From IMG/VR virus record IMGVR_UViG_3300023265_000001: a stretch of DNA of 64,000 bases, one strand, 5' to 3'. Positions 10,927 through 36,202 of the stretch are shown piece by piece. The DNA is from a virus. Each line of letters begins with the position of its first letter. The first letter of the stretch is position 1. The notes beneath the pieces are model-generated. The model made no database searches, was not told the DNA's origin, and worked only from the letters and a program-made list of their open reading frames with translations. Both the position numbers and the translations under genes were made by a program.

Positions 10927-11049
10927 ATGCAGCAGACGATCGAGCGCAAGGCTACCGACAAGAACGCCGGCCAGGAGACTGTGCCCACCGATCCGGCTCA
11001 CGAGCTGACCTGGGAGCGGGCCGTGGAAATGGCCATCGCTGGCTACTGA
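10927..11049 (+). CDS. array ORF 1, small hypothetical protein (40 aa)
   Basis: ATG 10927 after GAGCGAGGAG; stop TGA lies inside repeat SIR-01. Confidence 0.5.
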   Translation: MQQTIERKATDKNAGQETVPTDPAHELTWERAVEMAIAGY

Positions 11050-11108
11050 TCCTGTGGTTGAGGTCGAGGCGCGGCGTAAGCCGTGCTTGGACTCCGGCAC
11101 AGGGCCGG
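11046..11108 (+). repeat. SIR-01 structured intergenic repeat, family A
   Basis: CTGATC + outer stem CCTGTG/CACAGG + TTGAGGTCG + AGGCGCGGC/GCCGTGCTT hairpin + GCCGG. Confidence 0.85.
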
Positions 11109-11127
11109 TTTGGCAAGGGAGCGCGGC

Positions 11128-11352
11128 ATGGAAACCGAAACGTCGATGAACTTCGACCAGATGCACGACCAGCACGTGATCGAGTTCGCCGACCAGATCC
11201 TCGGGGTCAAGGAGTGGATGCGGATGTTCGGCAACAAAGATCACCCGCACTTCGGCCCGGTGACCGATCTCTGGGACCAGGCCGCCGCCGAGCTGGAGGA
11301 TCGCGGCCTTTTCGTCGAGTTCCGGGAAGAGCGAGGCATGGACCTGGACTGA
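11128..11352 (+). CDS. array ORF 2, hypothetical acidic protein (74 aa)
   Basis: ATG 11128 20 nt after SIR-01, GGGAG SD; stop in SIR-02. Confidence 0.6.
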   Translation: METETSMNFDQMHDQHVIEFADQILGVKEWMRMFGNKDHPHFGPVTDLWDQAAAELEDRGLFVEFREERGMDLD

Positions 11353-11411
11353 TCCTGCGGTTGAGGTCGAGGCGCGGTGCGAACCGTGCCTGGACTCCGG
11401 CGCAGGGCCGG
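11349..11411 (+). repeat. SIR-02, family A
   Basis: Outer stem CCTGCG/CGCAGG; inner AGGCGCGG tgcgaa CCGTGCCT. Confidence 0.85.
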
Positions 11412-11431
11412 ATGGAAGCGAGGAAGTTGTC

Positions 11432-11704
11432 ATGGACATGCTCAAGTTCGCCGAGGACATGTACGCCGTTTACTCGACGCGGCAGATGTTCCGGGTGGCT
11501 CGCCTGGTGACGCCGGACGAGGACCGTTCCCGCTGGGTGGCGACTGCCGACAGCCGGGTGTGGCGCCAGGACAACGATCGCTGGCAGGGCATGGGCGACT
11601 GGGAGGTTGTCCGGCACCCTGACGGGGAGATCCGGGAGCACCTGACCGAGCAGTTGCACCACTACGGCGTGGCTCCGTCGTCGCCGATGTGGGAGACGTA
11701 CTGA
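11432..11704 (+). CDS. array ORF 3, hypothetical protein (90 aa)
   Basis: ORF track; SD GAGGAAG; stop in SIR-03. Confidence 0.6.
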   Translation: MDMLKFAEDMYAVYSTRQMFRVARLVTPDEDRSRWVATADSRVWRQDNDRWQGMGDWEVVRHPDGEIREHLTEQLHHYGVAPSSPMWETY

Positions 11705-11763
11705 TCCTGCGGTTGAGGTCGAGGCGCGGCGTAGGCCGTGCCTGGACTCCGGCGCAGGGCCGG
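11701..11763 (+). repeat. SIR-03, family A
   Basis: Outer stem CCTGCG/CGCAGG; inner AGGCGCGGC gtag GCCGTGCCT. Confidence 0.85.
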
Positions 11764-11782
11764 ACGGAACGAGGGAGACATC

Positions 11783-12103
11783 ATGGGCGACGCCACGGCG
11801 GTCGAGATCATCACGGCGGCGGAACTGATCACGCCGGATGACTACACGACCGAACTGGGCAAGCGCTGGGCGGCGCACCGCAACGAGTGGGTGACCGTGA
11901 CCGAGATCCGGCTGGCGCACACCGGCGGCCAGCTGGCGGGCTACATCGTGGCCGGTGACGACAACCACGTGTTCGGCATGGCGGAGTGCACCGACGGCTC
12001 CTCCAAGTCGGTGGCGCACTGCGTCCTGGACACGTCGTCGGGCAGGGAGCACATGATCGCCAGTGTGATCGCTGTCTGGGCTGACAGCTGGGGCGGTAAC
12101 TGA
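11783..12103 (+). CDS. array ORF 4, hypothetical protein (106 aa)
   Basis: ATG 11783 after GAGGGAGACATC; stop in SIR-04. Confidence 0.6.
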   Translation: MGDATAVEIITAAELITPDDYTTELGKRWAAHRNEWVTVTEIRLAHTGGQLAGYIVAGDDNHVFGMAECTDGSSKSVAHCVLDTSSGREHMIASVIAVWADSWGGN

Positions 12104-12162
12104 TCCTGCGGTTGAGGTCGAGGCGCGGCGCTGGCCGTGCCTGGACTCCGGCGCAGGGCCGG
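12100..12162 (+). repeat. SIR-04, family A
   Basis: Outer stem CCTGCG/CGCAGG; same inner helix, loop gctg. Confidence 0.85.
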
Positions 12163-12180
12163 ATTGAGCAAGGGGGCGTC

Positions 12181-12426
12181 ATGCCGAAGTTCGAGATCCA
12201 CGCCAACGGGGACCGTCAGGAAACCATCGAGCTGGAGATGCCCAAGATCGGGCTGCTGATCGAGGTGGTCAGCGCGTTCTGGACGCACGATGTGTTCCGC
12301 AACGAGGGTGGCTGCCCGTTCACGGTTGCGGTGGTCAAGCACGACGGCCGAACCGTGGCGTATGGGTGGCTGGAGCCTGCGGGTTGGATGTGGGACGACA
12401 TCGACGAGGCTTACGACGAGAGCTGA
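12181..12426 (+). CDS. array ORF 5, hypothetical protein (81 aa)
   Basis: ATG 12181 after AGGGGG; stop in SIR-05. Confidence 0.6.
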   Translation: MPKFEIHANGDRQETIELEMPKIGLLIEVVSAFWTHDVFRNEGGCPFTVAVVKHDGRTVAYGWLEPAGWMWDDIDEAYDES

Positions 12427-12485
12427 TCCTGCGGTTGAGGTCGAGGCGCGGCGTAGGCCGTGCCTCGACTCCGGCGCAGGGCCGG
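12423..12485 (+). repeat. SIR-05, family A
   Basis: Outer stem CCTGCG/CGCAGG. Confidence 0.85.
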
Positions 12486-12504
12486 ACGTACGGAAGGTGT
12501 GAGC

Positions 12505-12762
12505 ATGAGCTACCGCGTCGAGGTGCTGGAGCCCCTCACGGAGGAGCCGCTGGGCTTCCTGATGACCGAGGACGACGAGAATCCGAACAACGTCGAGCGG
12601 GTCGCCAGCTTCGACACCCTGGAGGATGTCCGGCAGGCAATCGGCGAGTCGATCGCCGCTGGCCGCCCGATGGACTACCTGGTCGAGGACGAGAGCGGCG
12701 AGCACATCGGCGTGGCCTACGCCGATGGGGAGGTGTGGCACTACGAACTGCCCGAGGACTGA
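12505..12762 (+). CDS. array ORF 6, hypothetical strongly acidic protein (85 aa)
   Basis: ATG 12505 after GGAAGG; D/E-rich; stop in SIR-06. Confidence 0.6.
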   Translation: MSYRVEVLEPLTEEPLGFLMTEDDENPNNVERVASFDTLEDVRQAIGESIAAGRPMDYLVEDESGEHIGVAYADGEVWHYELPED

Positions 12763-12820
12763 TCCTGTGGTTGAGGGTGCGGGCCGCTACGGCGGCTCGT
12801 CGCCTCCGGCACAGGGCCGG
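12759..12820 (+). repeat. SIR-06, family B
   Basis: Outer stem CCTGTG/CACAGG; TTGAGGGTG; inner GCCGC tacg GCGGC; CGCCTCCGG. Confidence 0.85.
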
Positions 12821-12837
12821 ATGAGAGCGAGGGCACG

Positions 12838-13092
12838 ATGACCTTCCGAATGATGATCCGTGAGGCTGTCAAGGGTGGCGGCATCGAGGAATATCACCCC
12901 GAGGTCAGCGCCAAAGAGATCGACTACTTCGTCACGGTCACGGAGAAGTTCTACGGGGCCTGCCCGCAGTTCTTCGCGGTGACGATCATCGACGAGGACA
13001 CCGACGAACCGGTGCTGTACGGGGCTCGCCAGCAGGGCGACGTGTGGCGCTGGAGCGGGGCGTACTACGCACCACGGCCGAAAGGCTACTGA
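12838..13092 (+). CDS. array ORF 7, hypothetical protein (84 aa)
   Basis: ORF track; SD GAGGG; stop in SIR-07. Confidence 0.6.
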   Translation: MTFRMMIREAVKGGGIEEYHPEVSAKEIDYFVTVTEKFYGACPQFFAVTIIDEDTDEPVLYGARQQGDVWRWSGAYYAPRPKGY

Positions 13093-13151
13093 TCCTGCGG
13101 TTGAGGTCGAGGCGCGGCGTAGGCCGTGCCTGGACTCCGGCGCAGGGCCGG
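13089..13151 (+). repeat. SIR-07, family A
   Basis: Identical core to SIR-03. Confidence 0.85.
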
Positions 13152-13168
13152 ACGGAAGTGAGGGCATC

Positions 13169-13660
13169 ATGACCAGGATCATCGACCAGCGGGTCCGGGA
13201 CTTCGTCGCCGAGACCGGGCTGGATCTCGTGACGGTCAGCGAGTACGTCGAGGACGTCGTTACCGGCTACATCGGCACGCTGTTGTGGAGCGAGTCGTGC
13301 AACGGCACGGCGCCGTTGCACGTCTGCGACCACCTCAGTAGGCAAGGTGACGAGGCTGCCGACTGCGACACGAGCTTGGACTCGCTGGGCTACGCCGAGA
13401 ACGATCTCGCCGGGGAGGCTTACGACTCGATCCGGGAGGACGTCGCGGACTTCGTCTGCGCCAACTGGGCGGACCTGTACGGCTCCGACATGGACGCCGG
13501 GCAGGCCGGTCACGACTTCCTGCTCACCCGCAACCACCACGGTGCGGGTTTCTGGGACCGGGGGCTCGGCGAGCGTGGCGACAGGCTCACGGCCAACGCT
13601 CACCCGTACGGCACAACCGACGCCTACGTGGGAGACGACGAGCTGGTCTACGTGAGCTGA
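13169..13660 (+). CDS. array ORF 8, hypothetical acidic protein (163 aa)
   Basis: ORF track; conserved-looking GHDFLLTRNHHGAGFWDRG segment; stop in SIR-08. Confidence 0.65.
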   Translation: MTRIIDQRVRDFVAETGLDLVTVSEYVEDVVTGYIGTLLWSESCNGTAPLHVCDHLSRQGDEAADCDTSLDSLGYAENDLAGEAYDSIREDVADFVCANWADLYGSDMDAGQAGHDFLLTRNHHGAGFWDRGLGERGDRLTANAHPYGTTDAYVGDDELVYVS

Positions 13661-13720
13661 TCGTCCAGATGAGGGTGAGCGCCGGTTACGCCCGGCGCTT
13701 CGCCTCCGGTGGATGGCCGG
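13657..13720 (+). repeat. SIR-08, family B variant
   Basis: Outer stem GTCCA/TGGAT; ATGAGGGTG; inner GCGCCGG ttacg CCCGGCGC; CGCCTCCGG. Confidence 0.75.
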
Positions 13721-13741
13721 CCGATTTCCAGGAGGAATCTC

Positions 13742-14011: not shown

Positions 14012-14030
14012 GCTGAGTGTCACGGCCAAC

Positions 14031-14060
14031 TTGACAGGGTAGGGTGAGGGCCGCTACTGT
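14031..14060 (+). promoter_or_regulatory. promoter module copy 1
   Basis: TGTCACGGCCAACTTGACA; TTGACA 14031-36, 18-nt spacer, TACTGT 14055-60; homologous to modules at 17289 and 21759. Confidence 0.6.
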
Positions 14061-14096: not shown

Positions 14097-14294
14097 ATGG
14101 CAATCACACAGGACGTACTGGCGGGCAGCGCCGCATACGACGCAGTAGCCCAGACGGAGAGCGTCGAGGAAAAGCGACACCTGCTCCGGGCGTTCCGGCC
14201 GGGCGTGCTGCACTACCTCGCCGATGCGGTCTACGTGGAATGGGAGGGGCTGCGCGAGGAGACCGTGATCAACAACATCCTGACCGAACTCTGA
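14097..14294 (+). CDS. array ORF 10, hypothetical protein (65 aa)
   Basis: ORF track; SD GAGAGGGACGGGAC; stop in SIR-09. Confidence 0.6.
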   Translation: MAITQDVLAGSAAYDAVAQTESVEEKRHLLRAFRPGVLHYLADAVYVEWEGLREETVINNILTEL

Positions 14295-14352
14295 TCCTGT
14301 GGTTGAGGGTGGGCGCCAGCGTGCTGGCGCTACGCCTCCGGCACAGGGCCGG
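14291..14352 (+). repeat. SIR-09, family B
   Basis: Outer stem CCTGTG/CACAGG; inner GCGCCAG cgtg CTGGCGC. Confidence 0.85.
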
Positions 14353-14370
14353 TACGAGCAAGGGAGCGAC

Positions 14371-14748
14371 ATGGACCCCAACGCCGCGTTGGAGCAGATC
14401 AGGGCAGCCCGCCGAGAGATCCAGTCGGTGGCCGAGCAGATCGTCTGGCCCTACCAGGGCGACCGTGAGCGGAACCTGGAGCGGGTCGCCGAGGAGCTGG
14501 CCGAACTCTTCCAGGGCTTGGATGAGTTCCTGACACACGGCGGTTTTCTGCCGAGCGACTGGGAGGGCAAGCGCAAGGCGTTCACCCCGGAGCAGGGGGA
14601 CGTCATCGCCGAGGCGCTGGGCGACGCCTACGCCTACCGCAACGACTCCGGCGAGAGGGACGAGGAGGACCTGGAGGAGTACGAGCGGGAGGCGTGCCGC
14701 CGGTACACGCAGCTGGCGACCGAACTGGGCGTGAAGATCGCCAACTGA
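14371..14748 (+). CDS. array ORF 11, hypothetical acidic protein (125 aa)
   Basis: ATG 14371 after AGGGAG; stop in SIR-10. Confidence 0.6.
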   Translation: MDPNAALEQIRAARREIQSVAEQIVWPYQGDRERNLERVAEELAELFQGLDEFLTHGGFLPSDWEGKRKAFTPEQGDVIAEALGDAYAYRNDSGERDEEDLEEYEREACRRYTQLATELGVKIAN

Positions 14749-14806
14749 TCCTGTGGTTGAGGGTGCGGGCCGCCACGGCGGCCCGATGCCTCCGGCACAG
14801 GGCCGG
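14745..14806 (+). repeat. SIR-10, family B
   Basis: Outer stem CCTGTG/CACAGG; inner GGGCCGC cacg GCGGCCC. Confidence 0.85.
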
Positions 14807-14827
14807 AAGTGAGCACGAGGAGCGACC

Positions 14828-15187
14828 ATGAAGCTGCACACCGACATCCTGACGTCGATGAACATCGACGAGGCGCTGAACCGAGCCAAGGAGGCGGGCA
14901 AGGTCACTCGGGACATCTACTTCGTCCAGAAGAACGGCGCCGGGTCTCGGTCCCGCCGGGCCGGGTACGAGATCCAGCTGGGCACCGACGACAAGACGTC
15001 GGGACCGACCAACTCCCGGCGCTTCAAGAACAGCGGCTGGACCGGCGCCGACACGGTGTACGCGGCGACCTACGACGAGTGGGGATGGTTCATCGCCCAG
15101 CTCTTCCAGGTCGACCCTGACGCCATCTTCGGCGGCTACAAGGGCGTGGAGGACTTCCACGAGCAGACCAAGAACGCGTATCGCTGA
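14828..15187 (+). CDS. array ORF 12, hypothetical protein (119 aa)
   Basis: ORF track; SD GAGGAG; stop in SIR-11. Confidence 0.6.
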   Translation: MKLHTDILTSMNIDEALNRAKEAGKVTRDIYFVQKNGAGSRSRRAGYEIQLGTDDKTSGPTNSRRFKNSGWTGADTVYAATYDEWGWFIAQLFQVDPDAIFGGYKGVEDFHEQTKNAYR

Positions 15188-15245
15188 TCCTGCGGGTGAG
15201 GGTGGGCGCCGGGTAACCGGCGCCATGCCTCCGGCGCAGGGCCGG
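15184..15245 (+). repeat. SIR-11, family B
   Basis: Outer stem CCTGCG/CGCAGG; GTGAGGGTG; inner GGCGCCGG gtaa CCGGCGCC. Confidence 0.85.
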
Positions 15246-15264
15246 ACAGAATGAGGGAGACATC

Positions 15265-15642
15265 ATGGGCAGCGTCCTGGACTACTTCGTCCGTCACATC
15301 ACGCTGGTGCTCGACAACGACGAGGTGACCTACAACCGAATGACACGGACGGCGATCCGCATCGTCCGCAACAGCGGGGTCACGGTCTCCGAGTGGAAGA
15401 AGATGAACAGCGAGGACCGCCGCGACGAGTACGCCATGAAGATCGGCGAGCGTCTGGTGGAGATCATCGAGGATGAGTACCTCGCCGAGGCGGTCAGTGA
15501 CGGCACGGTCGGCGCGCAGCTGATCAGCGAGGTCATGATCACCGGCGACAGCGCGTTCGTCTACGAGATCGGCAGTCACTACATCCCCGAGGACGCCGAC
15601 GTCGTCGACCTGCTCGACGACGAGGACGAGGACGAGGACTGA
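15265..15642 (+). CDS. array ORF 13, hypothetical protein with poly-acidic tail (125 aa)
   Basis: ORF track; SD GAGGGAG; ends LLDDEDEDED; stop in SIR-12. Confidence 0.6.
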   Translation: MGSVLDYFVRHITLVLDNDEVTYNRMTRTAIRIVRNSGVTVSEWKKMNSEDRRDEYAMKIGERLVEIIEDEYLAEAVSDGTVGAQLISEVMITGDSAFVYEIGSHYIPEDADVVDLLDDEDEDED

Positions 15643-15700
15643 TCCTGCGGATGAGGGTGCGGGCCGCTGAAGCGGCCCGATGCCTCCGGCACAGGGCCGG
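15639..15700 (+). repeat. SIR-12, family B
   Basis: Outer stem CCTGCG/CACAGG (one mismatch); inner GGGCCGC tgaa GCGGCCC. Confidence 0.8.
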
Positions 15701-15719
15701 TATGTACGAGGGAGTGGCG

Positions 15720-16004
15720 ATGGCAACCCTTTACGGCGTGATCTACACAGCCGACGACGAGAGCACCACCGAGCACTCGGCCCACATCACCAAAGATGAC
15801 GCGGCACGGGCTGGCGCTGAGCTGGTCAAGGCCGAGGTCGAGCGCATCAGGTCGTGGGACCCGTCAGCGCCTGACCTGCCCGAGGCGTGGGCAGGCGACT
15901 GGGACCTGATCGACTGGATGCGCTCGCACTACGAGGTGCGTCTGGAGATCGAGCCCGTCGAGGTCTCCGAGGATGTGATCCGGGCGCTGATTGCCCGGCG
16001 CTGA
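15720..16004 (+). CDS. array ORF 14, hypothetical acidic protein (94 aa)
   Basis: ATG 15720 after GAGGGAG; stop in SIR-13. Confidence 0.6.
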   Translation: MATLYGVIYTADDESTTEHSAHITKDDAARAGAELVKAEVERIRSWDPSAPDLPEAWAGDWDLIDWMRSHYEVRLEIEPVEVSEDVIRALIARR

Positions 16005-16062
16005 TCCTGCGGATGAAGGTGCGGGCCGCTACGGCGGCTCGTCGCCTCCGGCGCAGGGCCGG
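16001..16062 (+). repeat. SIR-13, family B
   Basis: Outer stem CCTGCG/CGCAGG; ATGAAGGTG; inner GGGCCGC tacg GCGGCTC. Confidence 0.85.
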
Positions 16063-16081
16063 ATGGAACGAGGGAGACACC

Positions 16082-16450
16082 ATGACCATGCCTCACATCA
16101 AGGTCTACCGCGAGTGGACCGTCTGGGAGAACGAGGGCGACGACGAGCCCACCGTGGTCAAGCAGGAGGAAGACACCTACCCCTGCTTCCCCGATGCGAT
16201 CGACCACCAGGACGGCCTGACGGTCGTCGACCTGGCGGTGGCGGTCCTGGAGGGCAAGCTCTACGTGACCGAGACCAGCAACCACCCGTGGTCGCTGGGG
16301 AGCTGGTACAGCGCCACTCCTGGCCCCGATCACAGCTGGGGCATGAACGGCGCCGACGAGAGCCTGACGGCGCACCTGGAGGGCTTCACACCGGAGGAGG
16401 AGACGACGATCTTCGAGACGGTGAGCAAGCACGTGCCGTCGATGCGCTGA
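16082..16450 (+). CDS. array ORF 15, hypothetical acidic protein (122 aa)
   Basis: ATG 16082 after GAGGGAGACACC; stop in SIR-14. Confidence 0.6.
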   Translation: MTMPHIKVYREWTVWENEGDDEPTVVKQEEDTYPCFPDAIDHQDGLTVVDLAVAVLEGKLYVTETSNHPWSLGSWYSATPGPDHSWGMNGADESLTAHLEGFTPEEETTIFETVSKHVPSMR

Positions 16451-16509
16451 CCGTACGGATGAGGGTGGCTGCCAGCACGCTGGCAGCTCGCCTCCGGCGT
16501 ACGGGCCGG
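16447..16509 (+). repeat. SIR-14, family B
   Basis: Outer stem CCGTACG/CGTACGG (covaries vs CCTGCG); inner GCTGCCAGC ac GCTGGCAGC. Confidence 0.85.
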
Positions 16510-16528
16510 ACTGACGAAGGGAAACATC

Positions 16529-16864
16529 ATGAGCCTGAACTGGGACACCACCGCGTGCGTCGAGGACGTCACCAGCGAGGAGCACTGGAAGATCACCGAG
16601 GCCATCATCTGGGGCACCATGGCCGTGGACATGGGCCGGATCACCGAGGCGAACTACAAGAAGTTCGCCAAGCGGATCGACATGGTGCAGGGTCTGTACG
16701 GCGCGCTCTACCAGGTCTTCGAGGATGGGAAGGTCGTGGACCGCCCGGTCACCGAGGAAGACATCCGCCGGCGCATCGGTCTGAAGACCAATGTGACCAC
16801 GACCAGCGACGCCAAGTTCAACAAGCGGATGGCCGATGCGCTTCAGCGCAAGGGCCGGGCCTGA
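16529..16864 (+). CDS. array ORF 16, hypothetical protein (111 aa)
   Basis: ORF track; SD GAAGGGAAA; stop in SIR-15. Confidence 0.6.
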   Translation: MSLNWDTTACVEDVTSEEHWKITEAIIWGTMAVDMGRITEANYKKFAKRIDMVQGLYGALYQVFEDGKVVDRPVTEEDIRRRIGLKTNVTTTSDAKFNKRMADALQRKGRA

Positions 16865-16923
16865 CCGTACGGATGAGGGTGGGCGCCAGCACGCTGGCGT
16901 CGCGCCTCCGGCGTACGGGCCGG
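16861..16923 (+). repeat. SIR-15, family B
   Basis: Outer stem CCGTACG/CGTACGG; inner GCGCCAGC ac GCTGGCGT. Confidence 0.85.
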
Positions 16924-16942
16924 AACGACGAAGGGAAGCAAG

Positions 16943-17230
16943 ATGCAGCGAGACAACCTGGCTATCGCGGTGTCCTACGAGGGTGAGCGGGAGGTTGACA
17001 GCGGCGGTGTGAGCAAGCTGGCCGAGCTGTACCGCCAGATGCAGTACGGCGCGGACATCCGGATCCTGAGCGTGGCCGCGCTGGACGAGGGCGGGGTGCT
17101 GGTGCCGGTGAAGCACGAGATGCTGCCCTACACCTTCGACGACAACTCGATGGCCTACCCGGTCGTCAAGGTGACCATGCCGGACGGCCTGGCCGAGTGG
17201 GCGACCTTTTCGCTGGACGGCCGCGCCTAA
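16943..17230 (+). CDS. array ORF 17, hypothetical protein (95 aa)
   Basis: ORF track; SD GAAGGGAAG; TAA stop abuts SIR-16. Confidence 0.6.
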   Translation: MQRDNLAIAVSYEGEREVDSGGVSKLAELYRQMQYGADIRILSVAALDEGGVLVPVKHEMLPYTFDDNSMAYPVVKVTMPDGLAEWATFSLDGRA

Positions 17231-17288
17231 TCGTGCGCTGATGGTGGCGCCCGGCTTCGGCCGGGCGTTGCCACCGTCGCATGACGGA
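17228..17288 (+). repeat. SIR-16, family C
   Basis: Outer stem CGTGCG/CGCATG; CTGATGG; inner GGTGGCGCCCGGC ttcg GCCGGGCGttGCCACC; followed by a promoter. Confidence 0.85.
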
Positions 17289-17306
17289 CACACTGTCACG
17301 ACCAAC

Positions 17307-17335
17307 TTGACAGTGGGGTTGAGATGCACTACGTT
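17307..17335 (+). promoter_or_regulatory. promoter module copy 2
   Basis: CACTGTCA..TGACAGTG inverted repeat over -35; TTGACA 17307-12, 17-nt spacer, TACGTT 17330-35; then TCTCAGCAGGGAAAAC. Confidence 0.65.
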
Positions 17336-17371: not shown

Positions 17372-17785
17372 ATGGGGAAGCTGCTCGCATCCAAGTTCCT
17401 GGAGCAGGTCATTCACCAGATGCCGGAGGACGTACTGGCCAACTACGGCAACTGCAGCGTGCCGGAGTCACACGAAAGCCCTGGTGCTCGGTTCCTCAAC
17501 GGAGCACGTCAAGGCTTCCTGCAGATTCTGGATCAGTACAACGGCGAGAGCCGGCAGGAGACCCAGGACAAGGTCTGGGGCGTGGCTGCGGAATGCCCGG
17601 CTGGAGTCATCAGCCTGCTTTGGGAGCAGTTCGCCGACCTGCACGCCTACCGCGAGGACATCGAAATGGAGATGCGCTCGCTGAACGACATGGCGCACAT
17701 CGCGTTGCAGCAGATCGCCGAGCGCGTCATCCAGGACCTGCTCAACGAGTGGTTCGACCAGCTCGAAGCGCCCGAATACTACTGA
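17372..17785 (+). CDS. array ORF 18, hypothetical protein (137 aa)
   Basis: ATG 17372 after CGGAGG; stop in SIR-17. Confidence 0.6.
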   Translation: MGKLLASKFLEQVIHQMPEDVLANYGNCSVPESHESPGARFLNGARQGFLQILDQYNGESRQETQDKVWGVAAECPAGVISLLWEQFADLHAYREDIEMEMRSLNDMAHIALQQIAERVIQDLLNEWFDQLEAPEYY

Positions 17786-17841
17786 CGTACGGATGATGGT
17801 GCGGCCCGGGTGACCGGGCCGATGCCACCGCTGTACGGCGG
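17782..17841 (+). repeat. SIR-17, family C
   Basis: Outer stem CGTACGG/CTGTACG (7 bp incl. one G-U); ATGATGG; inner GGCCCGG gtga CCGGGCC. Confidence 0.85.
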
Positions 17842-17863
17842 AACGATCGAGAGTGAGGCAGGC

Positions 17864-18157
17864 ATGACAACCTCTTACGTGCTGACGGTTCGGCACCCCG
17901 ACTACGGCAACGAGTACACAGTCGACGGCGACGTGCATGTCGTCGACATCGACCTGGGCAACGGATTCTTCGTGCGGCCCGGCGACTACGAGACCGCGAT
18001 GGACTTCGCGCTCTCCGTCGACAGGCTGTCGGACGTGCCGATCACCTCCCCGGTCTTCTCGGCCGGGCTGGCCATCTTCAGGGAGGCGCTGAGGGACTGG
18101 GACAACGTGCTGCCGATCATCGACGAGTACGAGCAGGAGCGCTGCCGCGTCGCCTGA
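17864..18157 (+). CDS. array ORF 19, hypothetical acidic protein (97 aa)
   Basis: ATG 17864 after GAGTGAGGCAGGC; stop in SIR-18. Confidence 0.6.
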   Translation: MTTSYVLTVRHPDYGNEYTVDGDVHVVDIDLGNGFFVRPGDYETAMDFALSVDRLSDVPITSPVFSAGLAIFREALRDWDNVLPIIDEYEQERCRVA

Positions 18158-18214
18158 TCCGTGCGCTGATGGTGCGGCCCGGTCATCCGGGCCGCCGCCA
18201 CCGCCGCACGGCGG
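18154..18214 (+). repeat. SIR-18, family C
   Basis: Outer stem CGTGCG/CGCACG; inner GGCCCGG tcat CCGGGCC. Confidence 0.85.
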
Positions 18215-18233
18215 AACGATCGAGGGAGCAACC

Positions 18234-29817: not shown

Positions 29818-30300
29818 ATGCCGTTCACCAACAGCCTGCAGGTCGTCGAGCACGACATCCGGTCGTGGAAGCTGCTCAACGACCTGCACTATCAAGGCGA
29901 CACCGACCACTTCACCGTGCCGGCCGGCTATGTCACCGACTTCGCCAGCGTGCCCGACTCGCTCGTGTGGCTGCTCAACAAGACCGGCCCTTACACCCGG
30001 GCCGCGGTCGTGCACGACTGGCTGATCACCGACGAGATCCCCGCCAAGCGGGTTACCTCGCGCGACACCGACGGCCTGTTCCGCCGGATCATGCGCGAGG
30101 AGGGCGTCCCGTTCCCGAAGCGCTGGGTGATGTGGGCCGCCGTACGCATGGGCGCCCTGTTCTCCCCCGGCCGGGCATACGGCCGGCAGTTCTACCGCGA
30201 CGCGCCGCTGATCACCCTGATTGCCGTGCTGTCGCTCCCCATCGTGCCGGCGACCCTGCTGGTGCTGATCACCCGGACGCTGTTGCGCCCCCTGCGGTAG
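29818..30300 (+). CDS. DUF1353-like protein
   Basis: 160 aa; FTVPAGYVTDFASVP ... AAVVHDWL ... SRDTDGLF pattern of DUF1353; C-terminal TM. Confidence 0.65.
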   Translation: MPFTNSLQVVEHDIRSWKLLNDLHYQGDTDHFTVPAGYVTDFASVPDSLVWLLNKTGPYTRAAVVHDWLITDEIPAKRVTSRDTDGLFRRIMREEGVPFPKRWVMWAAVRMGALFSPGRAYGRQFYRDAPLITLIAVLSLPIVPATLLVLITRTLLRPLR

Positions 30301-32839: not shown

Positions 32840-32859
32840 ATGTTGGTGTCACATCTGAC

Positions 32860-32889
32860 TTGACAGCGTAGGACAGTATTAGATAGGCT
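32860..32889 (+). promoter_or_regulatory. sigma70-type promoter
   Basis: TTGACA 32860-65, 18-nt spacer, TAGGCT 32884-89. Confidence 0.55.
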
Positions 32890-33097: not shown

Positions 33098-33543
33098 GCG
33101 ACGACCAGCAGGGCACCAGCTCTGCAGACAGCGTCGGAGATGGGTTCCGGCGCATCGAACTGGCCGGCGGTACCGAGCGCGGTGAGCGCGGTGTGCAGTG
33201 GGCCGCGGCCGAAATGGTCCGCCGGCAGCAGACTCCGCTGGAGGGCGACGAGTCACGGCGGGAACGCTGGGACGAACCGCTGATCATCTACGTCGAAGAG
33301 ATCGGCGGCTTCAGCGAGCAGGCCAAAGACCTGCTCGCGCGACTTGCCCATGAGGGCCGATCGGAAGGCGTCGTCGTGTCGGTCAGGCGCGACGTGAAAG
33401 GCCCGAAGCACCCGGTCACCAGGCCGGTCTCGGAGCGGTTCGACCCGCCCCTGGAGTACCGGCCGTACGAAGAGATCTACGCCCTGGTGAACAGGCTGTG
33501 GGCAGACATCGAAAACCGAAGCACCACGAAGGGACGCAAATGA
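33094..33543 (+). CDS. hypothetical protein (149 aa)
   Basis: GTG 33094 overlaps upstream stop (GTGA); tail of ORF 32953..33543. Confidence 0.5.
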   Translation: MSDDQQGTSSADSVGDGFRRIELAGGTERGERGVQWAAAEMVRRQQTPLEGDESRRERWDEPLIIYVEEIGGFSEQAKDLLARLAHEGRSEGVVVSVRRDVKGPKHPVTRPVSERFDPPLEYRPYEEIYALVNRLWADIENRSTTKGRK

Positions 33544-34811
33544 CCGACGTCAACGAGGCTTTCCGCACCGAGCGCCTCTCCCAGATCGCCTTCGCCCAGA
33601 GCGCCGGCGAGCGGGCCGCGCAGAGCAACGAGGACCGGGTCCGCGAGTTCGACAGCCGTGTCGCGGACGGCAAGCTCCGCAACCTCGGCAACAACCGGTT
33701 CCAGGTCACCGACCCCAGCTCCTGGGACAACGGCGAGGTGCTGGTCCTGCGTCAGATCGACGTGCAGGGCGTGATGCAGCGGCAGATCCTGCCGGAGCAC
33801 GGCCTCGACGACAGCACCGGCACCGTGAAGGTCTACTCCCGGGCGCCGATGTGGCACGAGCTGGGCACCGTCATCCCCGAGGGCGTCAGCGACATCGACA
33901 CGGTCATGGAGCTGGGCGGCCTGAACTACCAGGTCGAGAAGCGGCCGTACCTCTATCGCAACCCGGTCACCGGCGTCGAGGAGACCCTCGACGGCCAGTT
34001 CACCACGTACCGGATGGACACCGGGAAGGCGCTCGGCACCGTCGGCAACATGTACGAGCCGGCGCAGAACCGCGACAGCTTCGAGTTCCTGGAGAAGCTG
34101 GTCGCCCGGACCGGCGTCATCTGGGAGTCGGCCGGCCCGCTGCGCAACGGCGCCAAGACGTTCGTCTCGATGCGCCTGCCGCAGGAGATCCGCATCGACC
34201 CGAACGGCGTGAACGACGAGATCCTGCCGTTCGTGATCGCCCTGAACAGCCACGACGGCTCCGGCAAGTTCGAGGTCATGGTCAGCCCGTGGCGCCCGAT
34301 CTGCGGCAACACGGAGCGGTTCGCCGTCCGGGACGCGCTGGTCCGCTGGGGCACCCGCCACACCAGCAACGGCGACGACAAGATGCGCGAGAAGATCCTC
34401 GACGCGCAGCGCACGATGGCCAACTCGGTCCAGTACTTCGAGCGGTTTGTCGAGGAGGAGAACGCGCTCGCGCAGGTGGCGATGCGGGACTCCGACATCG
34501 ACGCTCTGATCAACGAGATCTGGGGCGAGGTCGACGAGGACGCGACCAAGCAGGCCATCACCAAGCGCGCGAAGTTCGCGGAGAAGATCCGGCAGGGCCA
34601 CGCCGTCAACGTGGAGCAGGTCGGGTCCACCCTCTACGCCTTCGAGCGCACCGTGACCGCGTTCGCGGACCACGAGAAGACCTACAAGCCGCGCTCCAGC
34701 TCGCTGAAGGGCAAGGACGCCCTCATCCGGGCGACCGCGGTGGTCGAGGATCTCTCGGGCGACCTGAAGAGCCGGGCGCACCGCAAGCTGATGCTCCGCG
34801 TCAACCGCTGA
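33540..34811 (+). CDS. DUF932 (phage/plasmid-like TIGR03299-type) protein
   Basis: ATG 33540 (ATGA overlap); 423 aa; YRMDTGKALGTVGNMYEPAQN, GAKTFVSMRLP, LNSHDGSGKFEVMVSPWRPICGNT. Confidence 0.75.
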   Translation: MTDVNEAFRTERLSQIAFAQSAGERAAQSNEDRVREFDSRVADGKLRNLGNNRFQVTDPSSWDNGEVLVLRQIDVQGVMQRQILPEHGLDDSTGTVKVYSRAPMWHELGTVIPEGVSDIDTVMELGGLNYQVEKRPYLYRNPVTGVEETLDGQFTTYRMDTGKALGTVGNMYEPAQNRDSFEFLEKLVARTGVIWESAGPLRNGAKTFVSMRLPQEIRIDPNGVNDEILPFVIALNSHDGSGKFEVMVSPWRPICGNTERFAVRDALVRWGTRHTSNGDDKMREKILDAQRTMANSVQYFERFVEEENALAQVAMRDSDIDALINEIWGEVDEDATKQAITKRAKFAEKIRQGHAVNVEQVGSTLYAFERTVTAFADHEKTYKPRSSSLKGKDALIRATAVVEDLSGDLKSRAHRKLMLRVNR

Positions 34812-34868
34812 CCTGACCATCACCGTCGTCGCCGGCTCCGGCCGGCGGCGAGCGGCGGTCGCCAGGAG
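34809..34868 (+). repeat. SIR-33, family D
   Basis: TGA + CCTGAC..GTCgcCAGG outer stem; inner ACCGtCGtCGCCGGC tcc GCCGGCGgCGagCGG; runs into AGGAGG SD. Confidence 0.8.
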
Positions 34869-34889
34869 GCGAACGAGACAGGGGAAACC

Positions 34890-35228
34890 ATGACCAAGAC
34901 GAACCTGAACGAGCTGATGGACCGGATCATCAACGGCCCCGACCCGTTCGAGCGGGCCAAGATCGCCTACGAGAACTTCGCTGAGGGCTGGCGCCGCGCG
35001 AACCAGGCGACACGCGGCATCGACGACCTGATGGATCGGAGCGCCGAGCTGGCCCGGTCCGGCGGCAGGGACACCGAGCTGCTGGTGGAGATCGCCGATC
35101 GTCTGGAGCGGTTCGCGGTCGAGAAAGAGCGAAGCCGAGTGATCGACACGATCACCGCCAGCACCGCCGCGGAGATGCGCTGCCTGTCGGAGGTCTACCG
35201 GCGGCTCGCCCAGAAGGACGACGAGTAG
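34890..35228 (+). CDS. hypothetical protein (112 aa)
   Basis: ORF track. Confidence 0.6.
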   Translation: MTKTNLNELMDRIINGPDPFERAKIAYENFAEGWRRANQATRGIDDLMDRSAELARSGGRDTELLVEIADRLERFAVEKERSRVIDTITASTAAEMRCLSEVYRRLAQKDDE

Positions 35229-35286
35229 CAGCCTGACCATCACCGTCGTCGCCGGCTCCGGCCGGCGGCGTGCGGCGGTCGCCAGG
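35226..35286 (+). repeat. SIR-34, family D
   Basis: ~95% identical to SIR-33 over ~75 nt although flanking ORFs are unrelated. Confidence 0.8.
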
Positions 35287-35308
35287 AGGCGAACGAGAGA
35301 GGGGCAAC

Positions 35309-35671
35309 ATGTCGCAGCACCTGGAGTACTTCGAGTCCATCGCTCTGGACCTGAAGCAGCTGAGGTATCGAGACGACGACCTGGCGCAGCTGCTGGTCCG
35401 TGGCACCCGGTACGGCGGGGACTGGGTACTGAGCGCCAGTCCGTTCTTCGACGGCCAGCCGACGGACGCCGGCGTCGTCGGGAAGATCGAGACCACGGGC
35501 GTGAAGGGTGACGCCACCTGGGCGTTTCAGACCGCCTGCGTCTGGGTCGGGGACGCATGCAAGAAGGCGGACCTGGTGGTGGCGAGTTCGGAAGATCTCC
35601 GCAACCTGCTGCCGGCCGAGGAGCGCGAGTACTTCTGCAACGCGATGATCTTCATCGACCGGCTGCTCTGA
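35309..35671 (+). CDS. hypothetical protein (120 aa)
   Basis: ATG 35309 after GAGAGGGGCAAC. Confidence 0.6.
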   Translation: MSQHLEYFESIALDLKQLRYRDDDLAQLLVRGTRYGGDWVLSASPFFDGQPTDAGVVGKIETTGVKGDATWAFQTACVWVGDACKKADLVVASSEDLRNLLPAEEREYFCNAMIFIDRLL

Positions 35672-35722
35672 CCACCACCGTGCGGCCCGGGATACCCCCG
35701 GGCCGGGCGGCGGTCGCCAGGA
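35669..35722 (+). repeat. SIR-35, family D variant
   Basis: ACCGtGCGGCCCGGG atac CCCGGGCCGgGCGG then GGTCGCCAGGAGGCGAC. Confidence 0.65.
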
Positions 35723-35752
35723 GGCGACAAGCAATGACGAAAGGGGAAATCT

Positions 35753-36202
35753 ATGACATACAACGAGCAGGAACCGATTCCGAGCGGCAAGCCGCTGTTC
35801 AGCCGGACGATGGTGTTCGTCATCGTCGGGGGTGTCATCGGCCTGCTGGCCCTGACGTTCGTGGGCATCTTCCTGCAGGCCCGGGACAGCCAGGAGCCGG
35901 AACGCCGCTCGCTCAGCGCGACGCAGCAGCGGTGCGACGCGGCCGGCGCCGGGACCACCGTGCAGGACGACGGCAACACCCTGGTCGTGAACAGCATCGG
36001 CGCAGACCACCCGATGACCGGCGTTGACACGGCGGCGCTGCGATGCATCTTCGACGACGTCAAGATGCCCTCGTTCGTGTCCGAGGCGGTCTGGGCCACC
36101 CGGGCGCTGGACGGCCGCCAGGAGGACTCCTGGCCGGGCTACACGGCCGCGTGGAGCTACCACCCGGACTCCGGCCTGCGGATGATCATCCGAGCCGTCT
36201 GA
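35753..36202 (+). CDS. membrane-anchored protein (149 aa)
   Basis: ORF track; N-terminal TM (MVFVIVGGVIGLLALTFVGIFL). Confidence 0.6.
   Translation: MTYNEQEPIPSGKPLFSRTMVFVIVGGVIGLLALTFVGIFLQARDSQEPERRSLSATQQRCDAAGAGTTVQDDGNTLVVNSIGADHPMTGVDTAALRCIFDDVKMPSFVSEAVWATRALDGRQEDSWPGYTAAWSYHPDSGLRMIIRAV

What the first reader, a model, noticed from the sequence alone, without database searches (positions are those of the whole stretch)
10927..36202. 25-kb, 63-gene unidirectional block of small orphan ORFs: candidate establishment / anti-defence island
Every gene from 10927 to 36202 is on the + strand. Most encode proteins of 40-200 aa with no motif I recognise.

Several groups stand out:
- Many are strongly acidic, for example ORFs 12505, 15265 (ends DDEDEDED), 16082 and 18971.
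- Others are Cys-rich, zinc-ribbon-like proteins.
- The recognisable members are families typical of plasmid/ICE early-entry regions: DUF932 (33540), DUF1353 (29818), and an ORF with a GHDF.LTRN.HGAGFWDRG segment (13169).

Established knowledge: leading or early regions of conjugative elements concentrate anti-restriction, anti-CRISPR and DNA-mimic proteins, which are often small and acidic.

Inference: this block plays that role for a TraB-type (dsDNA-transferring) actinomycete element. For such elements the concept is, to my knowledge, unexplored.
Basis: partly seen in the sequence, partly recalled or inferred. Interest (0 to 1): 0.7.

Follow-up and report, generated by a model that had tools for sequence, protein, structure and literature searches.

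The report
Hairpin-punctuated small-gene array with rrn-like leader
The 25-kb run of 63 small unknown genes is real and belongs to a ~140-kb actinomycete mobile element, but its main feature is regulatory: repeated promoters, a ribosomal-RNA-type antitermination signal and a conserved RNA hairpin after most genes, along which genes are gained, lost and reordered.

Summary
In detail: 63 genes, all on the + strand, from 10927 to 36202, median 111 aa. Only 3 match Pfam and 12 match PHROG families, almost all of unknown function; 38 of 63 have pI below 5.

- 37 of 62 gene junctions hold a conserved 56-67 nt compound hairpin. It starts at the stop codon and occurs only in sense orientation.
- Two mutually exclusive helices (P1, P3) are both supported by covariation.
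- Nine near-identical TTGACA promoters, six with a TGTCA-N9-TGACA operator, split the block into units.
- The 1.4-kb leader carries three tandem promoters and a 20-nt motif otherwise found just upstream of actinobacterial 16S rRNA genes (boxA/CL2).
- An inositol-monophosphatase/SuhB-family gene lies next to the leader.

Close relatives differ by whole-cassette indels bounded by hairpins. Distant relatives have reshuffled cassettes.

The closest known analogue is the PeSL promoter/stem-loop cassettes of T4-type phages. It is not an integron.

The replicon mixes large-phage genes with a distant TraB-like gene. An anti-defence role is plausible but untested: two acidic candidates gave confident models with no match to any solved structure.

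The parts
10927..36202 (+). Block of 63 small genes, all on the + strand
   Evidence: Own gene caller. Pfam and PHROG scans.
8198..9001 (+). Inositol-monophosphatase / SuhB-family gene next to the leader
   Evidence: Pfam Inositol_P 1.5e-31. PDB matches: HisN 5yht 1.3e-27, 'Nus factor SuhB' 8wdq 1.5e-21, E. coli SuhB in rrnTAC 6tqn_T 1e-19. A homologue sits in the same place in L044 and L177.
9953..9993 (+). Leader promoter 1: GTCAAG-N-CTTGACA operator, -10 TAGGTT
10116..10156 (+). Leader promoter 2: operator plus TTGACA-17-TACGGT
10254..10295 (+). Leader promoter 3: TGTCA-N9-TGACA operator, TTGACA-17-TAACGT
10432..10451 (+). boxA/CL2-like motif of rrn leaders: TTTGAGAACTCCATAGCGTG
   Evidence: Single copy in the window. 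L045 has the exact 20-mer. That 20-mer lies 60-260 nt upstream of 16S rRNA in 8 of 8 metagenome loci tested.
10452..10545 (+). Conserved non-coding leader segment downstream of boxA
   Evidence: Near-identical in the window, L044 and L045. No Rfam match. Fold no more stable than shuffles.
14018..14060 (+). Internal operator-promoter
17294..17335 (+). Internal operator-promoter, directly after hairpin 17228-17292
21765..21806 (+). Internal operator-promoter, directly after hairpin 21697-21763
22851..22891 (+). Internal promoter variant: TTGACG-17-TACCTT
26235..26276 (+). Internal operator-promoter, directly after hairpin 26172-26236
32847..32889 (+). Internal operator-promoter ahead of the 32918-34811 unit (DUF932)
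11046..11108 (+). Hairpin, type A
11349..11411 (+). Hairpin, type A
11702..11767 (+). Hairpin, type A
   Evidence: Covariance-model hit
12101..12166 (+). Hairpin, type A
12424..12489 (+). Hairpin, type A
12760..12824 (+). Hairpin, type A
13090..13155 (+). Hairpin, type A
13658..13724 (+). Hairpin, type A variant (outer stem CGTCCA/TGGATG)
14292..14356 (+). Hairpin, type A; left boundary of variable cassette 14371-14748
14746..14810 (+). Hairpin, type A; right boundary of that cassette
15185..15249 (+). Hairpin, type A
15640..15704 (+). Hairpin, type A
16002..16066 (+). Hairpin, type A
16448..16514 (+). Hairpin, type A variant (CCGTACG/CGTACGG)
16862..16928 (+). Hairpin, type A variant
17228..17292 (+). 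Hairpin, type B
17782..17846 (+). Hairpin, type B
18156..18219 (+). Hairpin, type B
18889..18953 (+). Hairpin, type B; L002 carries an extra cassette here between two copies
19544..19608 (+). Hairpin, type B
19905..19969 (+). Hairpin, type B; the upstream ORF stops at the internal TGA
20340..20404 (+). Hairpin, type B
20807..20872 (+). Hairpin, type B
21697..21763 (+). Hairpin, type B
22015..22079 (+). Hairpin, type B
22536..22600 (+). Hairpin, type B
22896..22962 (+). Hairpin, type B, divergent 5' arm, downstream of promoter 22851-22891
23197..23261 (+). Hairpin, type B; left boundary of variable cassette 23280-23708
23695..23759 (+). Hairpin, type B; right boundary of that cassette
24746..24811 (+). 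Hairpin, type B
25489..25550 (+). Double hairpin of another type after the stop codon
26172..26236 (+). Hairpin, type B variant
28714..28761 (+). Hairpin of another type after the stop codon
30645..30709 (+). Hairpin, type B
34812..34872 (+). Hairpin, type C (3' mini-hairpin TCGCC-AGGA-GGCGA)
35229..35292 (+). Hairpin, type C
35672..35727 (+). Hairpin, type C
57335..57399 (+). One further hairpin copy outside the block, after the VWA gene, again starting at its stop codon
14371..14748 (+). Cassette present in the window but absent from the close relative L009
23280..23708 (+). Cassette present in the window but absent from L009
13169..13660 (+). Acidic 163-aa protein with HGAGFWDRG motif (phrog_1915, unknown function)
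18971..19546 (+). Acidic 191-aa protein; a homologue also sits inside the arrays of L007 and L043
26993..28713 (+). Hairpin-free compact operon of overlapping genes, several Cys-rich
29818..30300 (+). DUF1353 protein
   Evidence: Pfam 7.9e-30
33540..34811 (+). DUF932 / TIGR03299 phage-plasmid-like protein; a homologue also ends the array in L008

Best explanation
**What it is.** The block is the hyperplastic accessory arm of a ~140-kb actinomycete mobile replicon, and it looks early-expressed. It is built from regulatory cassettes rather than plain operons.

**Transcription.**
- It starts at three tandem strong promoters in a 1.4-kb leader and at six near-identical internal promoters.
- Most promoters are overlapped by a palindromic operator (TGTCA-N9-TGACA). 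This suggests one repressor and derepression on entry or induction (inferred).
- The leader RNA carries an rrn-type boxA. I infer that it loads the host Nus factors, possibly with the element's own SuhB-family protein. RNA polymerase would then become processive and termination-resistant across the first unit (inferred).

**Hairpins.**
- Within units, 37 genes are each followed by a 56-67 nt compound hairpin whose base contains the stop codon.
- I take these to act in the mRNA (inferred). With no ribosome on the stop codon, the long hairpin (P1+P2+inner stem, -37 to -50 kcal/mol) forms.
- A terminating ribosome would cover the 5' arm, and the freed 3' arm then folds into a mini-hairpin (P3).
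- The most likely role is to define and protect the 3' end of each cistron, by attenuation or RNase III-type processing, and to insulate neighbouring cistrons (inferred).

**Recombination.** Because the copies are near-identical, they also serve as homologous crossover points. That explains whole-cassette gain, loss and reordering (shown).

**Products.** The proteins are mostly small, acidic and of unknown function. Host takeover or anti-defence is plausible but not shown.
For: **Regular spacing and repeats**
- Gaps are 70-81 nt and hold the repeat.
- A covariance model finds 31 copies on the + strand of the window. Minus-strand hits are only mirror images, at most 31 bits against up to 84 bits.

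**Both helices covary**
- P1: 95.3% of cells paired, 36 double-change cells against 5.7 in shuffles, 0 of 500 shuffles as high.
- P3: 90.3% paired, 16 double-change cells against 2.5, 0 of 500.
- Further sequence types in L044 and L045 keep the same topology.

**Link to the stop codon**
- Every copy starts at the stop codon or contains it.
- Masking 16 nt gives P3 in 23 of 25 copies.
- A stricter automated test gives 63 of 102 against 32 of 309 in shuffles.

**Not U-tract terminators.** No U-tract terminator was found on the + strand in the 9400-29000 stretch scanned.

**Promoters and boxA**
- The operator-promoter occurs 6 times exactly, against 0.09 expected; full promoter list.
- The boxA motif lies upstream of 16S rRNA in 8 of 8 loci tested and is conserved in the leaders of three divergent relatives.
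- PMC10218544 names the mycobacterial CL2 rrn-leader motif a putative BoxA.
- SuhB-family homology. SuhB as a component of the rrn antitermination complex: PMC6614797, PMC4807359.

**Cassette turnover**
- Three of five indels among 94-99% identical relatives are bounded by hairpins.
- Cassette order differs in L044 and L045.

**Regulatory nature of the modules**
- L044 and L045 mix hairpin, promoter and hairpin+promoter modules.
- L167 uses promoter modules only.
- The precedent is PeSLs (PMC2839356, PMC4122927).
Against: - There are no expression data, so RNA-level action, processing, attenuation and antitermination are all inferred.
- G-U against A-C asymmetry is modest: P1 18 against 11, P3 14 against 3. 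A role for folded DNA is therefore not excluded.
- The ribosome-binding site and start codon stay unpaired in both conformers, so the output of the P1/P3 switch is unknown.
- boxA occurs only in the leader; the internal promoters lack it.
- L045 has boxA but no inositol-monophosphatase gene within 10 kb. The window's protein scores higher against HisN and IMPase than against SuhB.
- Two of five indels are not at hairpins.
Confidence: 0.55

Rival explanations
1. Integron-like cassette array. The hairpins are attC-type recombination sites that fold as single-stranded DNA, and a site-specific recombinase captures and excises cassettes.
For: - The layout is alike: small unidirectional ORFs, each followed by an imperfect palindrome with conserved ends and a variable centre.
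- Some ORFs end inside the repeat.
- Cassette indels and reordering occur at the repeats.
- The same gene, 18971, sits in three different arrays.
Against: - No tyrosine recombinase was found in the Pfam scans of the genes called in the window, nor among the precomputed Pfam hits for ~20 kb of flanks.
- The arms are CGTGCG/CGCACG or CCTGCG/CGCAGG, not RYYYAAC/GTTRRRY.
- The apparent crossover points differ between the two sequenced junctions.
- Relatives replace the hairpin with a promoter module in the same position.
- The array has its own internal promoters.
Confidence: 0.07
2. The hairpins are plain transcription terminators or attenuators, as in PeSLs. Their only function is to stop RNA polymerase unless it was modified at boxA or restarts at the next promoter.
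For: - In PeSLs the stem-loops are effective terminators (PMC2839356).
- Hairpins directly precede promoters at 17228, 21697 and 26172, and at many sites in L044 and L045.
- A boxA leader makes sense if there are signals to read through.
Against: - No U-tract follows any copy.
- Units started at internal promoters lack boxA yet contain up to about ten hairpins, so efficient termination would silence most genes.
- This reading does not explain the conserved P3 alternative.
Confidence: 0.2
3. One reading: the leading or early-entry anti-defence island of a TraB-type conjugative plasmid. The repeats would be incidental.
For: - A TraB-like gene pair has homologues on 126 Streptomycetaceae plasmids and none in phage records.
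- An iteron-rich putative origin or centromere lies at 3970-4660.
- The products are small and acidic.
- The promoters carry an operator.
Against: - The TraB family score is far below its cut-off.
- The replicon carries many large-phage hallmark genes, and relatives are filed in IMG/VR.
- No known anti-defence family was found. Two candidates have folds with no match among solved structures.
- The repeats are conserved in at least three lineages with covariation, so they are not incidental.
Confidence: 0.15

Closest known systems
PeSL (promoter-early stem-loop) regulatory cassettes of T4-type phage hyperplastic regions (PMC2839356, PMC4122927)
   Same: - Short conserved promoter and stem-loop modules sit between small ORFan genes in a variable region.
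- Indels and replacements between close relatives are bounded by the modules.
- Recombination between modules shuffles genes.
   Different: - The host is an actinomycete with 67% G+C.
- In the window most modules are a hairpin without a promoter.
- The hairpin is larger (about 20 bp in three stacked helices), is anchored on the stop codon, has no U-tract and has a conserved alternative fold.
- The array is headed by an rrn-type boxA.
Integron cassette arrays (attC sites and IntI)
   Same: - A unidirectional array of small orphan ORFs.
- Each is followed by an imperfect palindrome with conserved ends and a variable centre.
- Stop codons sometimes lie inside the repeat.
   Different: - No integrase was found.
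- There are no R''/R' core sites.
- There is no fixed crossover point.
- The array has internal promoters.
- Promoter modules can take the hairpin's place in relatives.
RNase III processing sites between early genes of phage T7 and SP82/SPO1 (own knowledge, not checked here)
   Same: Irregular hairpins with internal loops lie between consecutive cistrons of a long early transcript that also encodes host-takeover genes.
   Different: - There are 37 copies rather than about 5.
- The copies are near-identical.
- They are anchored on the stop codon.
- Cleavage has not been shown.
rrn and lambda-type BoxA/Nus processive antitermination with SuhB (PMC6614797, PMC6614801, PMC4807359, PMC5725501)
   Same: - A boxA motif identical or near-identical to that of the host clade's rrn leaders.
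- It is placed in a leader downstream of tandem strong promoters.
- A SuhB-family gene lies nearby.
   Different: - The transcript downstream is a protein-coding array on a mobile element.
- No boxB, boxC or N-like factor was identified.
- Function is untested.
REP/BIME intergenic palindromes of enterobacteria (own knowledge)
   Same: GC-rich palindromes lie 3' of genes and can stabilise upstream mRNA.
   Different: REPs are shorter, occur in both orientations, are scattered across the chromosome and are tied to RAYT transposases.

Membership tests
Integron | IntI-type tyrosine recombinase next to the array | tested here: not met
   No Phage_integrase hit in the Pfam scans of the genes called in the window or among the precomputed Pfam hits for the flanks.
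Integron | attC with R''/R' cores RYYYAAC / GTTRRRY | tested here: not met
   The conserved arms are CGTGCG/CGCACG, CCTGCG/CGCAGG and similar.
Integron | Unidirectional cassettes, each ending in an imperfect palindrome | tested here: met
   37 of 62 junctions.
Integron | Recombination at one fixed position of the site | tested here: inconclusive
   Only two junctions were resolved; they point to different parts of the repeat.
PeSL-type regulatory cassettes | Conserved sigma-70-like promoter joined to a stem-loop, between small ORFan genes | tested here: met
   Hairpin+promoter composites at 17228-17335, 21697-21806 and 26172-26276, and many in L044 and L045. Most units in the window have the hairpin only.
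PeSL-type regulatory cassettes | Indels or replacements between close relatives bounded by the motif | tested here: met
   3 of 5 indels.
PeSL-type regulatory cassettes | The stem-loop terminates transcription | not testable with these tools
   No U-tract follows the hairpins. Needs in vitro or in vivo transcription assays.
PeSL-type regulatory cassettes | Host genome is a T4-type myovirus | tested here: not met
   High-G+C actinomycete element. No DNA match to known phages.
BoxA/Nus antitermination | BoxA sequence matching that of the clade's rrn leaders | tested here: met
   19 of 20 in the window, 20 of 20 in L045. The motif lies upstream of 16S rRNA in 8 of 8 loci.
BoxA/Nus antitermination | Position in a transcribed leader downstream of a promoter | tested here: met
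   About 140 nt after the -10 hexamer of promoter 10254-10295 and 475 nt before the first ORF. Transcription itself is not shown.
BoxA/Nus antitermination | NusB/NusE/SuhB binding and read-through | not testable with these tools
   Needs ChIP or in vitro transcription.
SuhB (Nus factor) | Membership of the SuhB branch rather than another inositol-monophosphatase branch | tested here: inconclusive
   HisN and IMPase score higher (1e-27) than SuhB (1.5e-21).
Streptomyces TraB conjugation system | TraB-family FtsK-like translocase | tested here: not met
   NCBIfam plasmid_TraB scores 46.9 bits against a cut-off of 800; Pfam FtsK_SpoIIIE is below threshold. It is a distant relative, with homologues on plasmids.
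Streptomyces TraB conjugation system | clt locus with 8-bp TRS repeats | tested here: inconclusive
   Two GACCCGG copies were seen at 39561-39827, but no repeat family was found there.
ArdA/Ocr-type DNA mimics | Family sequence profile | tested here: not met
   No ArdA or other anti-restriction Pfam hit in the 62 block ORFs scanned.
ArdA/Ocr-type DNA mimics | Fold similarity | tested here: not met
   13169 and 18971 have no PDB match with E below 0.5. The other 61 ORFs were not modelled.
T7-type RNase III site | Hairpin of about two helical turns with an internal loop, between cistrons | tested here: met
   P1 (6-7 bp), internal loop, P2, inner stem.
T7-type RNase III site | Cleavage by RNase III | not testable with these tools
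   Needs end-mapping in wild type and an rnc mutant.

The most novel reading that the evidence does not exclude
A previously undescribed way of organising accessory genes on actinomycete mobile elements:
- Each cassette ends in a stop-codon-anchored, bistable RNA hairpin that senses whether a ribosome is terminating. The hairpin sets the fate of the transcript, and the same modules act as dedicated cassette-exchange sites.
- The whole array is driven by a hijacked ribosomal-RNA antitermination signal, together with an element-encoded SuhB.
Probability: 0.2. Interest if true: 0.85.

Novelty: new variant of a known kind. Interest (0 to 1): 0.6.

Why it matters
**If the model holds**
- It would extend the 'mobile regulatory cassette' principle from T4-type phages to high-G+C actinomycete elements.
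- It would be a case of a mobile element copying its host's rrn boxA, perhaps with its own SuhB, to drive a 25-kb protein-coding array.
- It would define a compact RNA module with two conserved alternative folds tied to the stop codon. That module can be tested directly as a translation-sensing device.

**Practical uses**
- The hairpin model and the promoter motif mark the boundaries of accessory cassettes in metagenomes. That gives a way to harvest candidate host-takeover or anti-defence genes.
- One array lies in a named, culture-collection strain, Micromonospora maritima JCM 17013, so experiments look feasible.

Tried and rejected
**Searches that found nothing**
- Megablast of 19 kb of the block against phages and plasmids: no match.
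- blastn of one hairpin against plasmids and phages: nothing relevant.
- Rfam at gathering threshold on the whole window, and at E-value threshold on the leader: no family.
- tRNA scan: none.

**Leads that proved uninformative**
- The best plasmid hit for DUF932, on a Streptomyces chartreusis plasmid, has a unidirectional hypothetical-gene block but irregular gaps and no model hits.
- The genome contigs pattern scan gave mostly single chance hits; only Micromonospora maritima (L043) holds an array.
- L003 was a chance match.
- The leader fold is no more stable than shuffles, z = -0.07.
- Pol III alpha is about 51% identical to both phage and plasmid homologues, so it does not classify the replicon.
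- Walking rightwards through IMG/VR with TROVE found only 39%-identical relatives.
- The next 10 kb, up to about 92 kb of the replicon, shows no virion genes. Phage versus plasmid therefore stays open.

**Readings rejected**
- A SECIS or stop-codon read-through reading of the 'UGA plus hairpin' arrangement. Reading through would add only 3-4 codons before the second UGA, and Rfam's SECIS models did not match.
- TraB recognition sites inside the hairpins. The inner stems vary in sequence.

Full report
**1. The observation**

The window is 62-70% G+C, so raw ORF lists are mostly noise. A codon-usage gene caller trained on the window's long ORFs gave 129 genes. Exactly 63 of them lie between 10927 and 36202, all on the + strand. 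Their median length is 111 aa and 61 of 63 are 200 aa or shorter.

- Pfam recognises only DUF1353 (29818-30300), DUF932 (33540-34811) and a sub-threshold zinc-finger domain (30919-31188).
- Twelve ORFs match PHROG families, almost all of unknown function.
- The first 31 ORFs have no sequence relative in the PDB.
- 38 of 63 products have pI below 5, against 15 of 66 elsewhere in the window.
- The Cys-rich mini-proteins cluster at 26993-28409.

**2.

Intergenic gaps in 10927-25500 are almost all 70-81 nt. They hold a repeated element that starts at the stop codon and ends about 20 nt before the next start codon, leaving room for the ribosome-binding site.

Three sequence types share one topology:

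| Type | Positions | 5' and 3' arms |
|---|---|---|
| A | 11046-16928 | TCCTGCGGTTGAGG ... CCTCCGGCGCAGGGCCGG |
| B | 17228-24811, 26172, 30645 | CGTGCGCTGATGGTG ... GCCACCGCCGCACGGCGGA |
| C | 34812-35727 | ... GGCGGTCGCCAGGAGGCGA |

- With two further hairpins (25489, 28714), 37 of the 62 junctions are occupied.
- The remaining junctions are overlapping or abutting genes (26993-28713, 30919-32211, 33094-33543) or promoters.
- Arm motifs occur only on the + strand.
- A covariance model built from the type-B copies finds 31 + strand copies in the window, 30 of them in the block and one after the VWA gene at 57335. Minus-strand hits are only weak mirror images, at most 31 bits against up to 84 bits.

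**3. Structure of the repeat**

Each copy folds into a long imperfect hairpin with an outer stem P1, an internal loop, a middle stem P2 and a variable G+C-rich inner stem. Free energies are -37 to -50 kcal/mol.

- A TGA is conserved immediately 5' of P1, and a second TGA lies in the internal loop. Every upstream ORF stops at one or the other; one uses TAA at the first position.
- The 3' strand of P1 is also the loop of a small 3' hairpin, P3. Examples are CCGCC-GCAC-GGCGG in type B and CCGGC-GCAGG-GCCGG in type A. P1 and P3 therefore exclude each other.
- On 60 copies from four sources, P1 is paired in 95.3% of cells, with 36 double-change cells against 5.7 ± 2.1 in shuffles (0 of 500 shuffles as high).
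- P3 was not part of the model. It is paired in 90.3% of cells, with 16 double-change cells against 2.5 ± 1.4 (0 of 500).
- New sequence types in relatives keep the same arrangement. CTGGAC/GTCCAG pairs sit inside CCGGG...CCCGG, and TCGAAC/GTTCGA pairs sit inside GGGA...TCCC.
- Masking the first 16 nt, as a ribosome on the stop codon would, gives P3 in 23 of 25 window copies. The ribosome-binding site and start codon stay open in both states.
- A stricter automated test gives 63 of 102 units against 32 of 309 shuffles.
- G-U against A-C counts favour the + strand only modestly: P1 18 against 11, P3 14 against 3.
- No copy is followed by a U-tract, and the scan of 9400-29000 found no U-tract terminator on the + strand.

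**4. Promoters and leader**

The motif TGTCA-N9-TGACA occurs six times, all in intergenic positions of the block or its leader, against 0.09 expected. In each case it overlaps a TTGACA -35 box, followed 17-18 nt later by TAC(G/T)(G/T)T or a close variant.

With variant operators, there are three tandem promoters in the leader (9953-10295) and six internal ones (14018, 17294, 21765, 22851, 26235, 32847).

The 1.4-kb leader (9497-10926) has no called gene.
- Downstream of the last promoter lies TTTGAGAACTCCATAGCGTG (10432-10451), the only such motif in the window.
- The relative L045 has TTTGAGAACTCAATAGCGTG at the same place.
- That pattern hit at least 120 metagenome loci, many at contig ends.
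- In 8 of 8 loci tested it lies 60-260 nt upstream of a 16S rRNA gene, on the same strand.
- The similarity to rrn leaders is confined to this motif.
- PMC10218544 describes the conserved mycobacterial rrn-leader motif CL2 as a putative BoxA. Against the gamma-proteobacterial consensus GYTCTTTAANA (PMC5725501), both the window's sequence and the actinobacterial rrn sequence match 9 of 11 positions (own count).
- About 90 nt after the motif are nearly identical in three relatives whose proteins are only 35-65% identical. They match no Rfam family.

Upstream of the leader, separated from it by a palindrome and two small minus-strand genes, lies an inositol-monophosphatase-family gene (8198-9001). 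It matches 'Nus factor SuhB' structures at 1.5e-21, but HisN and IMPase at 1e-27. SuhB is a component of the rrn antitermination complex (PMC6614797, PMC6614801, PMC4807359).

**5. Relatives and cassette turnover**

- The hairpin pattern found close relatives in IMG/VR (L002, L004, L005/L006 = L009), a distant 95-kb IMG/VR contig with arrays of its own (L007, L008), and a 610-kb contig of Micromonospora maritima JCM 17013 with at least 18 copies in 8 kb (L043).
- Homologues of ORF 13169 led to two ~140-kb contigs (L044, L045) with the same layout: minus-strand genes, a ~1-kb leader, then the + strand array. L044 also carries the inositol-monophosphatase gene; L045 does not within 10 kb.
- Among relatives 94-99% identical to the window there are five indels. 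Three are whole cassettes bounded by hairpins: 14371-14748 and 23280-23708 are present only in the window, and L002 has an extra cassette at 18889. Two are not at hairpins.
- The two sequenced junctions point to different parts of the repeat.
- In L044 and L045 most cassettes are different, and the shared ones are in a different order.
- ORF 18971 has homologues inside the arrays of L007 and L043. The array in L008 also ends with a 32336-like gene and DUF932.
- L044 and L045 mix three kinds of intergenic module: hairpin, promoter, and hairpin+promoter.
- L167, a 138.7-kb NCBI contig, has an array whose ~80-nt modules are conserved promoters, with no hairpin-model hit.
- The position between genes is thus filled by interchangeable regulatory modules. 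That argues for a role in expression rather than a dedicated recombination site.

**6. The replicon**

Exact proteins of the window lie on a 140,613-nt contig (ERZ27228469:k141_1605235). Relatives are 138.7-140.7 kb.

*Phage-like content*
- Rnl1-like and Rnl2-like RNA ligases, PNKP and the RlaP nucleotidyltransferase.
- A VWA protein 45% identical to its homologue in Mycobacterium phage Phabba (44% to Myrna gp18).
- A GH25 lysozyme.
- Outside the window: Pol III alpha, dCTP deaminase, ThyX, thymidylate kinase, RNase H, Ro60/TROVE and WhiB.

*Plasmid-like content*
- A distant TraB-like FtsK pair. It has homologues on 126 Streptomycetaceae plasmids and none in phage records, but its family score is far below the cut-off.
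- An iteron-rich region at 3970-4660.

Phage, plasmid or phage-plasmid remains open. No integrase was found.

**7. Function of the products**

- No family search links any ORF to a known anti-defence protein.
- ORF 13169 (pLDDT 96) and ORF 18971 (pLDDT 95) gave confident models. Neither has a PDB fold match with E below 0.5.
- 18971 resembles uncharacterised phage proteins of the same size, with TM-scores up to 0.57.
- The anti-defence reading is therefore neither refuted nor supported by direct evidence. It rests on context only: co-regulated promoters, rapid turnover, small acidic products, and a tRNA-repair module elsewhere on the replicon.

**8. Interpretation**

The best-supported model is a hyperplastic accessory region built from regulatory cassettes. 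The closest analogue is the PeSL system of T4-type phages (PMC2839356, PMC4122927). Four things are new here:
- a large stop-codon-anchored hairpin without a U-tract;
- two conserved alternative folds;
- an operator on the promoters;
- an rrn-type boxA leader with a nearby SuhB-family gene.

| Shown | Inferred |
|---|---|
| The anatomy of the block | Action at the RNA level |
| Covariation of P1 and P3 | Ribosome dependence of the P1/P3 switch |
| Strand bias of the hairpins | Processing or attenuation at the hairpins |
| Identity of the boxA motif with rrn leaders | Nus-dependent antitermination |
| Cassette indels and reordering | Repressor control of the promoters |
| | The role of the proteins |

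An integron is excluded as a family. No integrase was found, the core sites are absent, and there are internal promoters and replaceable modules. Recombination at the repeats clearly happens all the same.

No description of this arrangement was found in the searched literature. The hairpin has no match in the sequenced phage or plasmid collections.

Noticed in passing
window 3970-4660: A non-coding stretch in the window's lowest-G+C segment (0.62 for 4001-6000). It holds at least 15 copies of an 11-12-bp iteron (ATGGCAAATGC / ATAGCAAAYG) in two inverted clusters, plus about six CTTGCGACCCC repeats. It looks like a replication origin or partition site.
   Followed up: partly
window 53860-63051, and L178 beyond the right end: A full RNA-repair set: Rnl1-like ligase, Rnl2-like ligase, PNKP and RlaP nucleotidyltransferase. 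Just outside the window follow dCTP deaminase, ThyX, thymidylate kinase, RNase H and a Ro60/TROVE protein.
   Followed up: partly
window 41685-49522: Two large membrane or low-complexity proteins are followed by a 794-aa and a 336-aa FtsK-like protein. Their best family is plasmid_TraB, far below its cut-off. The same gene order occurs on a linear Kitasatospora indigofera plasmid (L046).
   Followed up: partly
window 10452-10545; L044 and L045 leaders: About 90 nt downstream of the boxA motif (GAATCCAGGTGGGCGGTACCGACCCGCTCGCAAAAACCTGGG...) are almost identical in three relatives whose proteins are only 35-65% identical. There is no Rfam match. This is a candidate leader RNA element.
   Followed up: partly
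L167 6600-16700 (GCA_040384425.1, JAWVGW010000092.1): A related array of small genes in which nearly every ~80-nt gap is a conserved promoter (CCGACA-N17-GTCATAGTT ... GAAAGGCA-ATG) instead of a hairpin. Toxin-antitoxin genes and a DNA methylase lie nearby.
   Followed up: partly
window 9002-9063, 36203-36250, 40323-40386, 40864-40898: Long perfect palindromes sit where convergent genes meet. They look like bidirectional terminators and differ from the array hairpins.
   Followed up: no
window 14371-14748: The cassette missing from the close relative L009 matches, over its first 72 residues, PHROG families annotated 'HNH endonuclease' (phrog_865, 2.6e-16). No HNH motif is evident by eye.
   Followed up: no
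window 27472-27708: A 78-aa protein with 7 Cys hits phrog_9947, which is labelled 'Lsr2-like DNA bridging protein' (2.5e-21). The label looks doubtful for a zinc-ribbon-like sequence.
   Followed up: no
L043 (Micromonospora maritima JCM 17013, NZ_BAABCL010000003.1): An array with at least 18 hairpin copies lies on a 610-kb contig of a named, culture-collection strain. This suggests that an integrated or very large form of the element exists.
   Followed up: partly
window 7379-8062 and 56324-57337: The 56324-57337 product is a VWA-domain protein (Pfam VWA). The 7379-8062 product gave no Pfam hit and only looks VWA-like by eye. Both lie outside the block. The 56324-57337 gene is followed by the only hairpin copy outside the array.
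   Followed up: no
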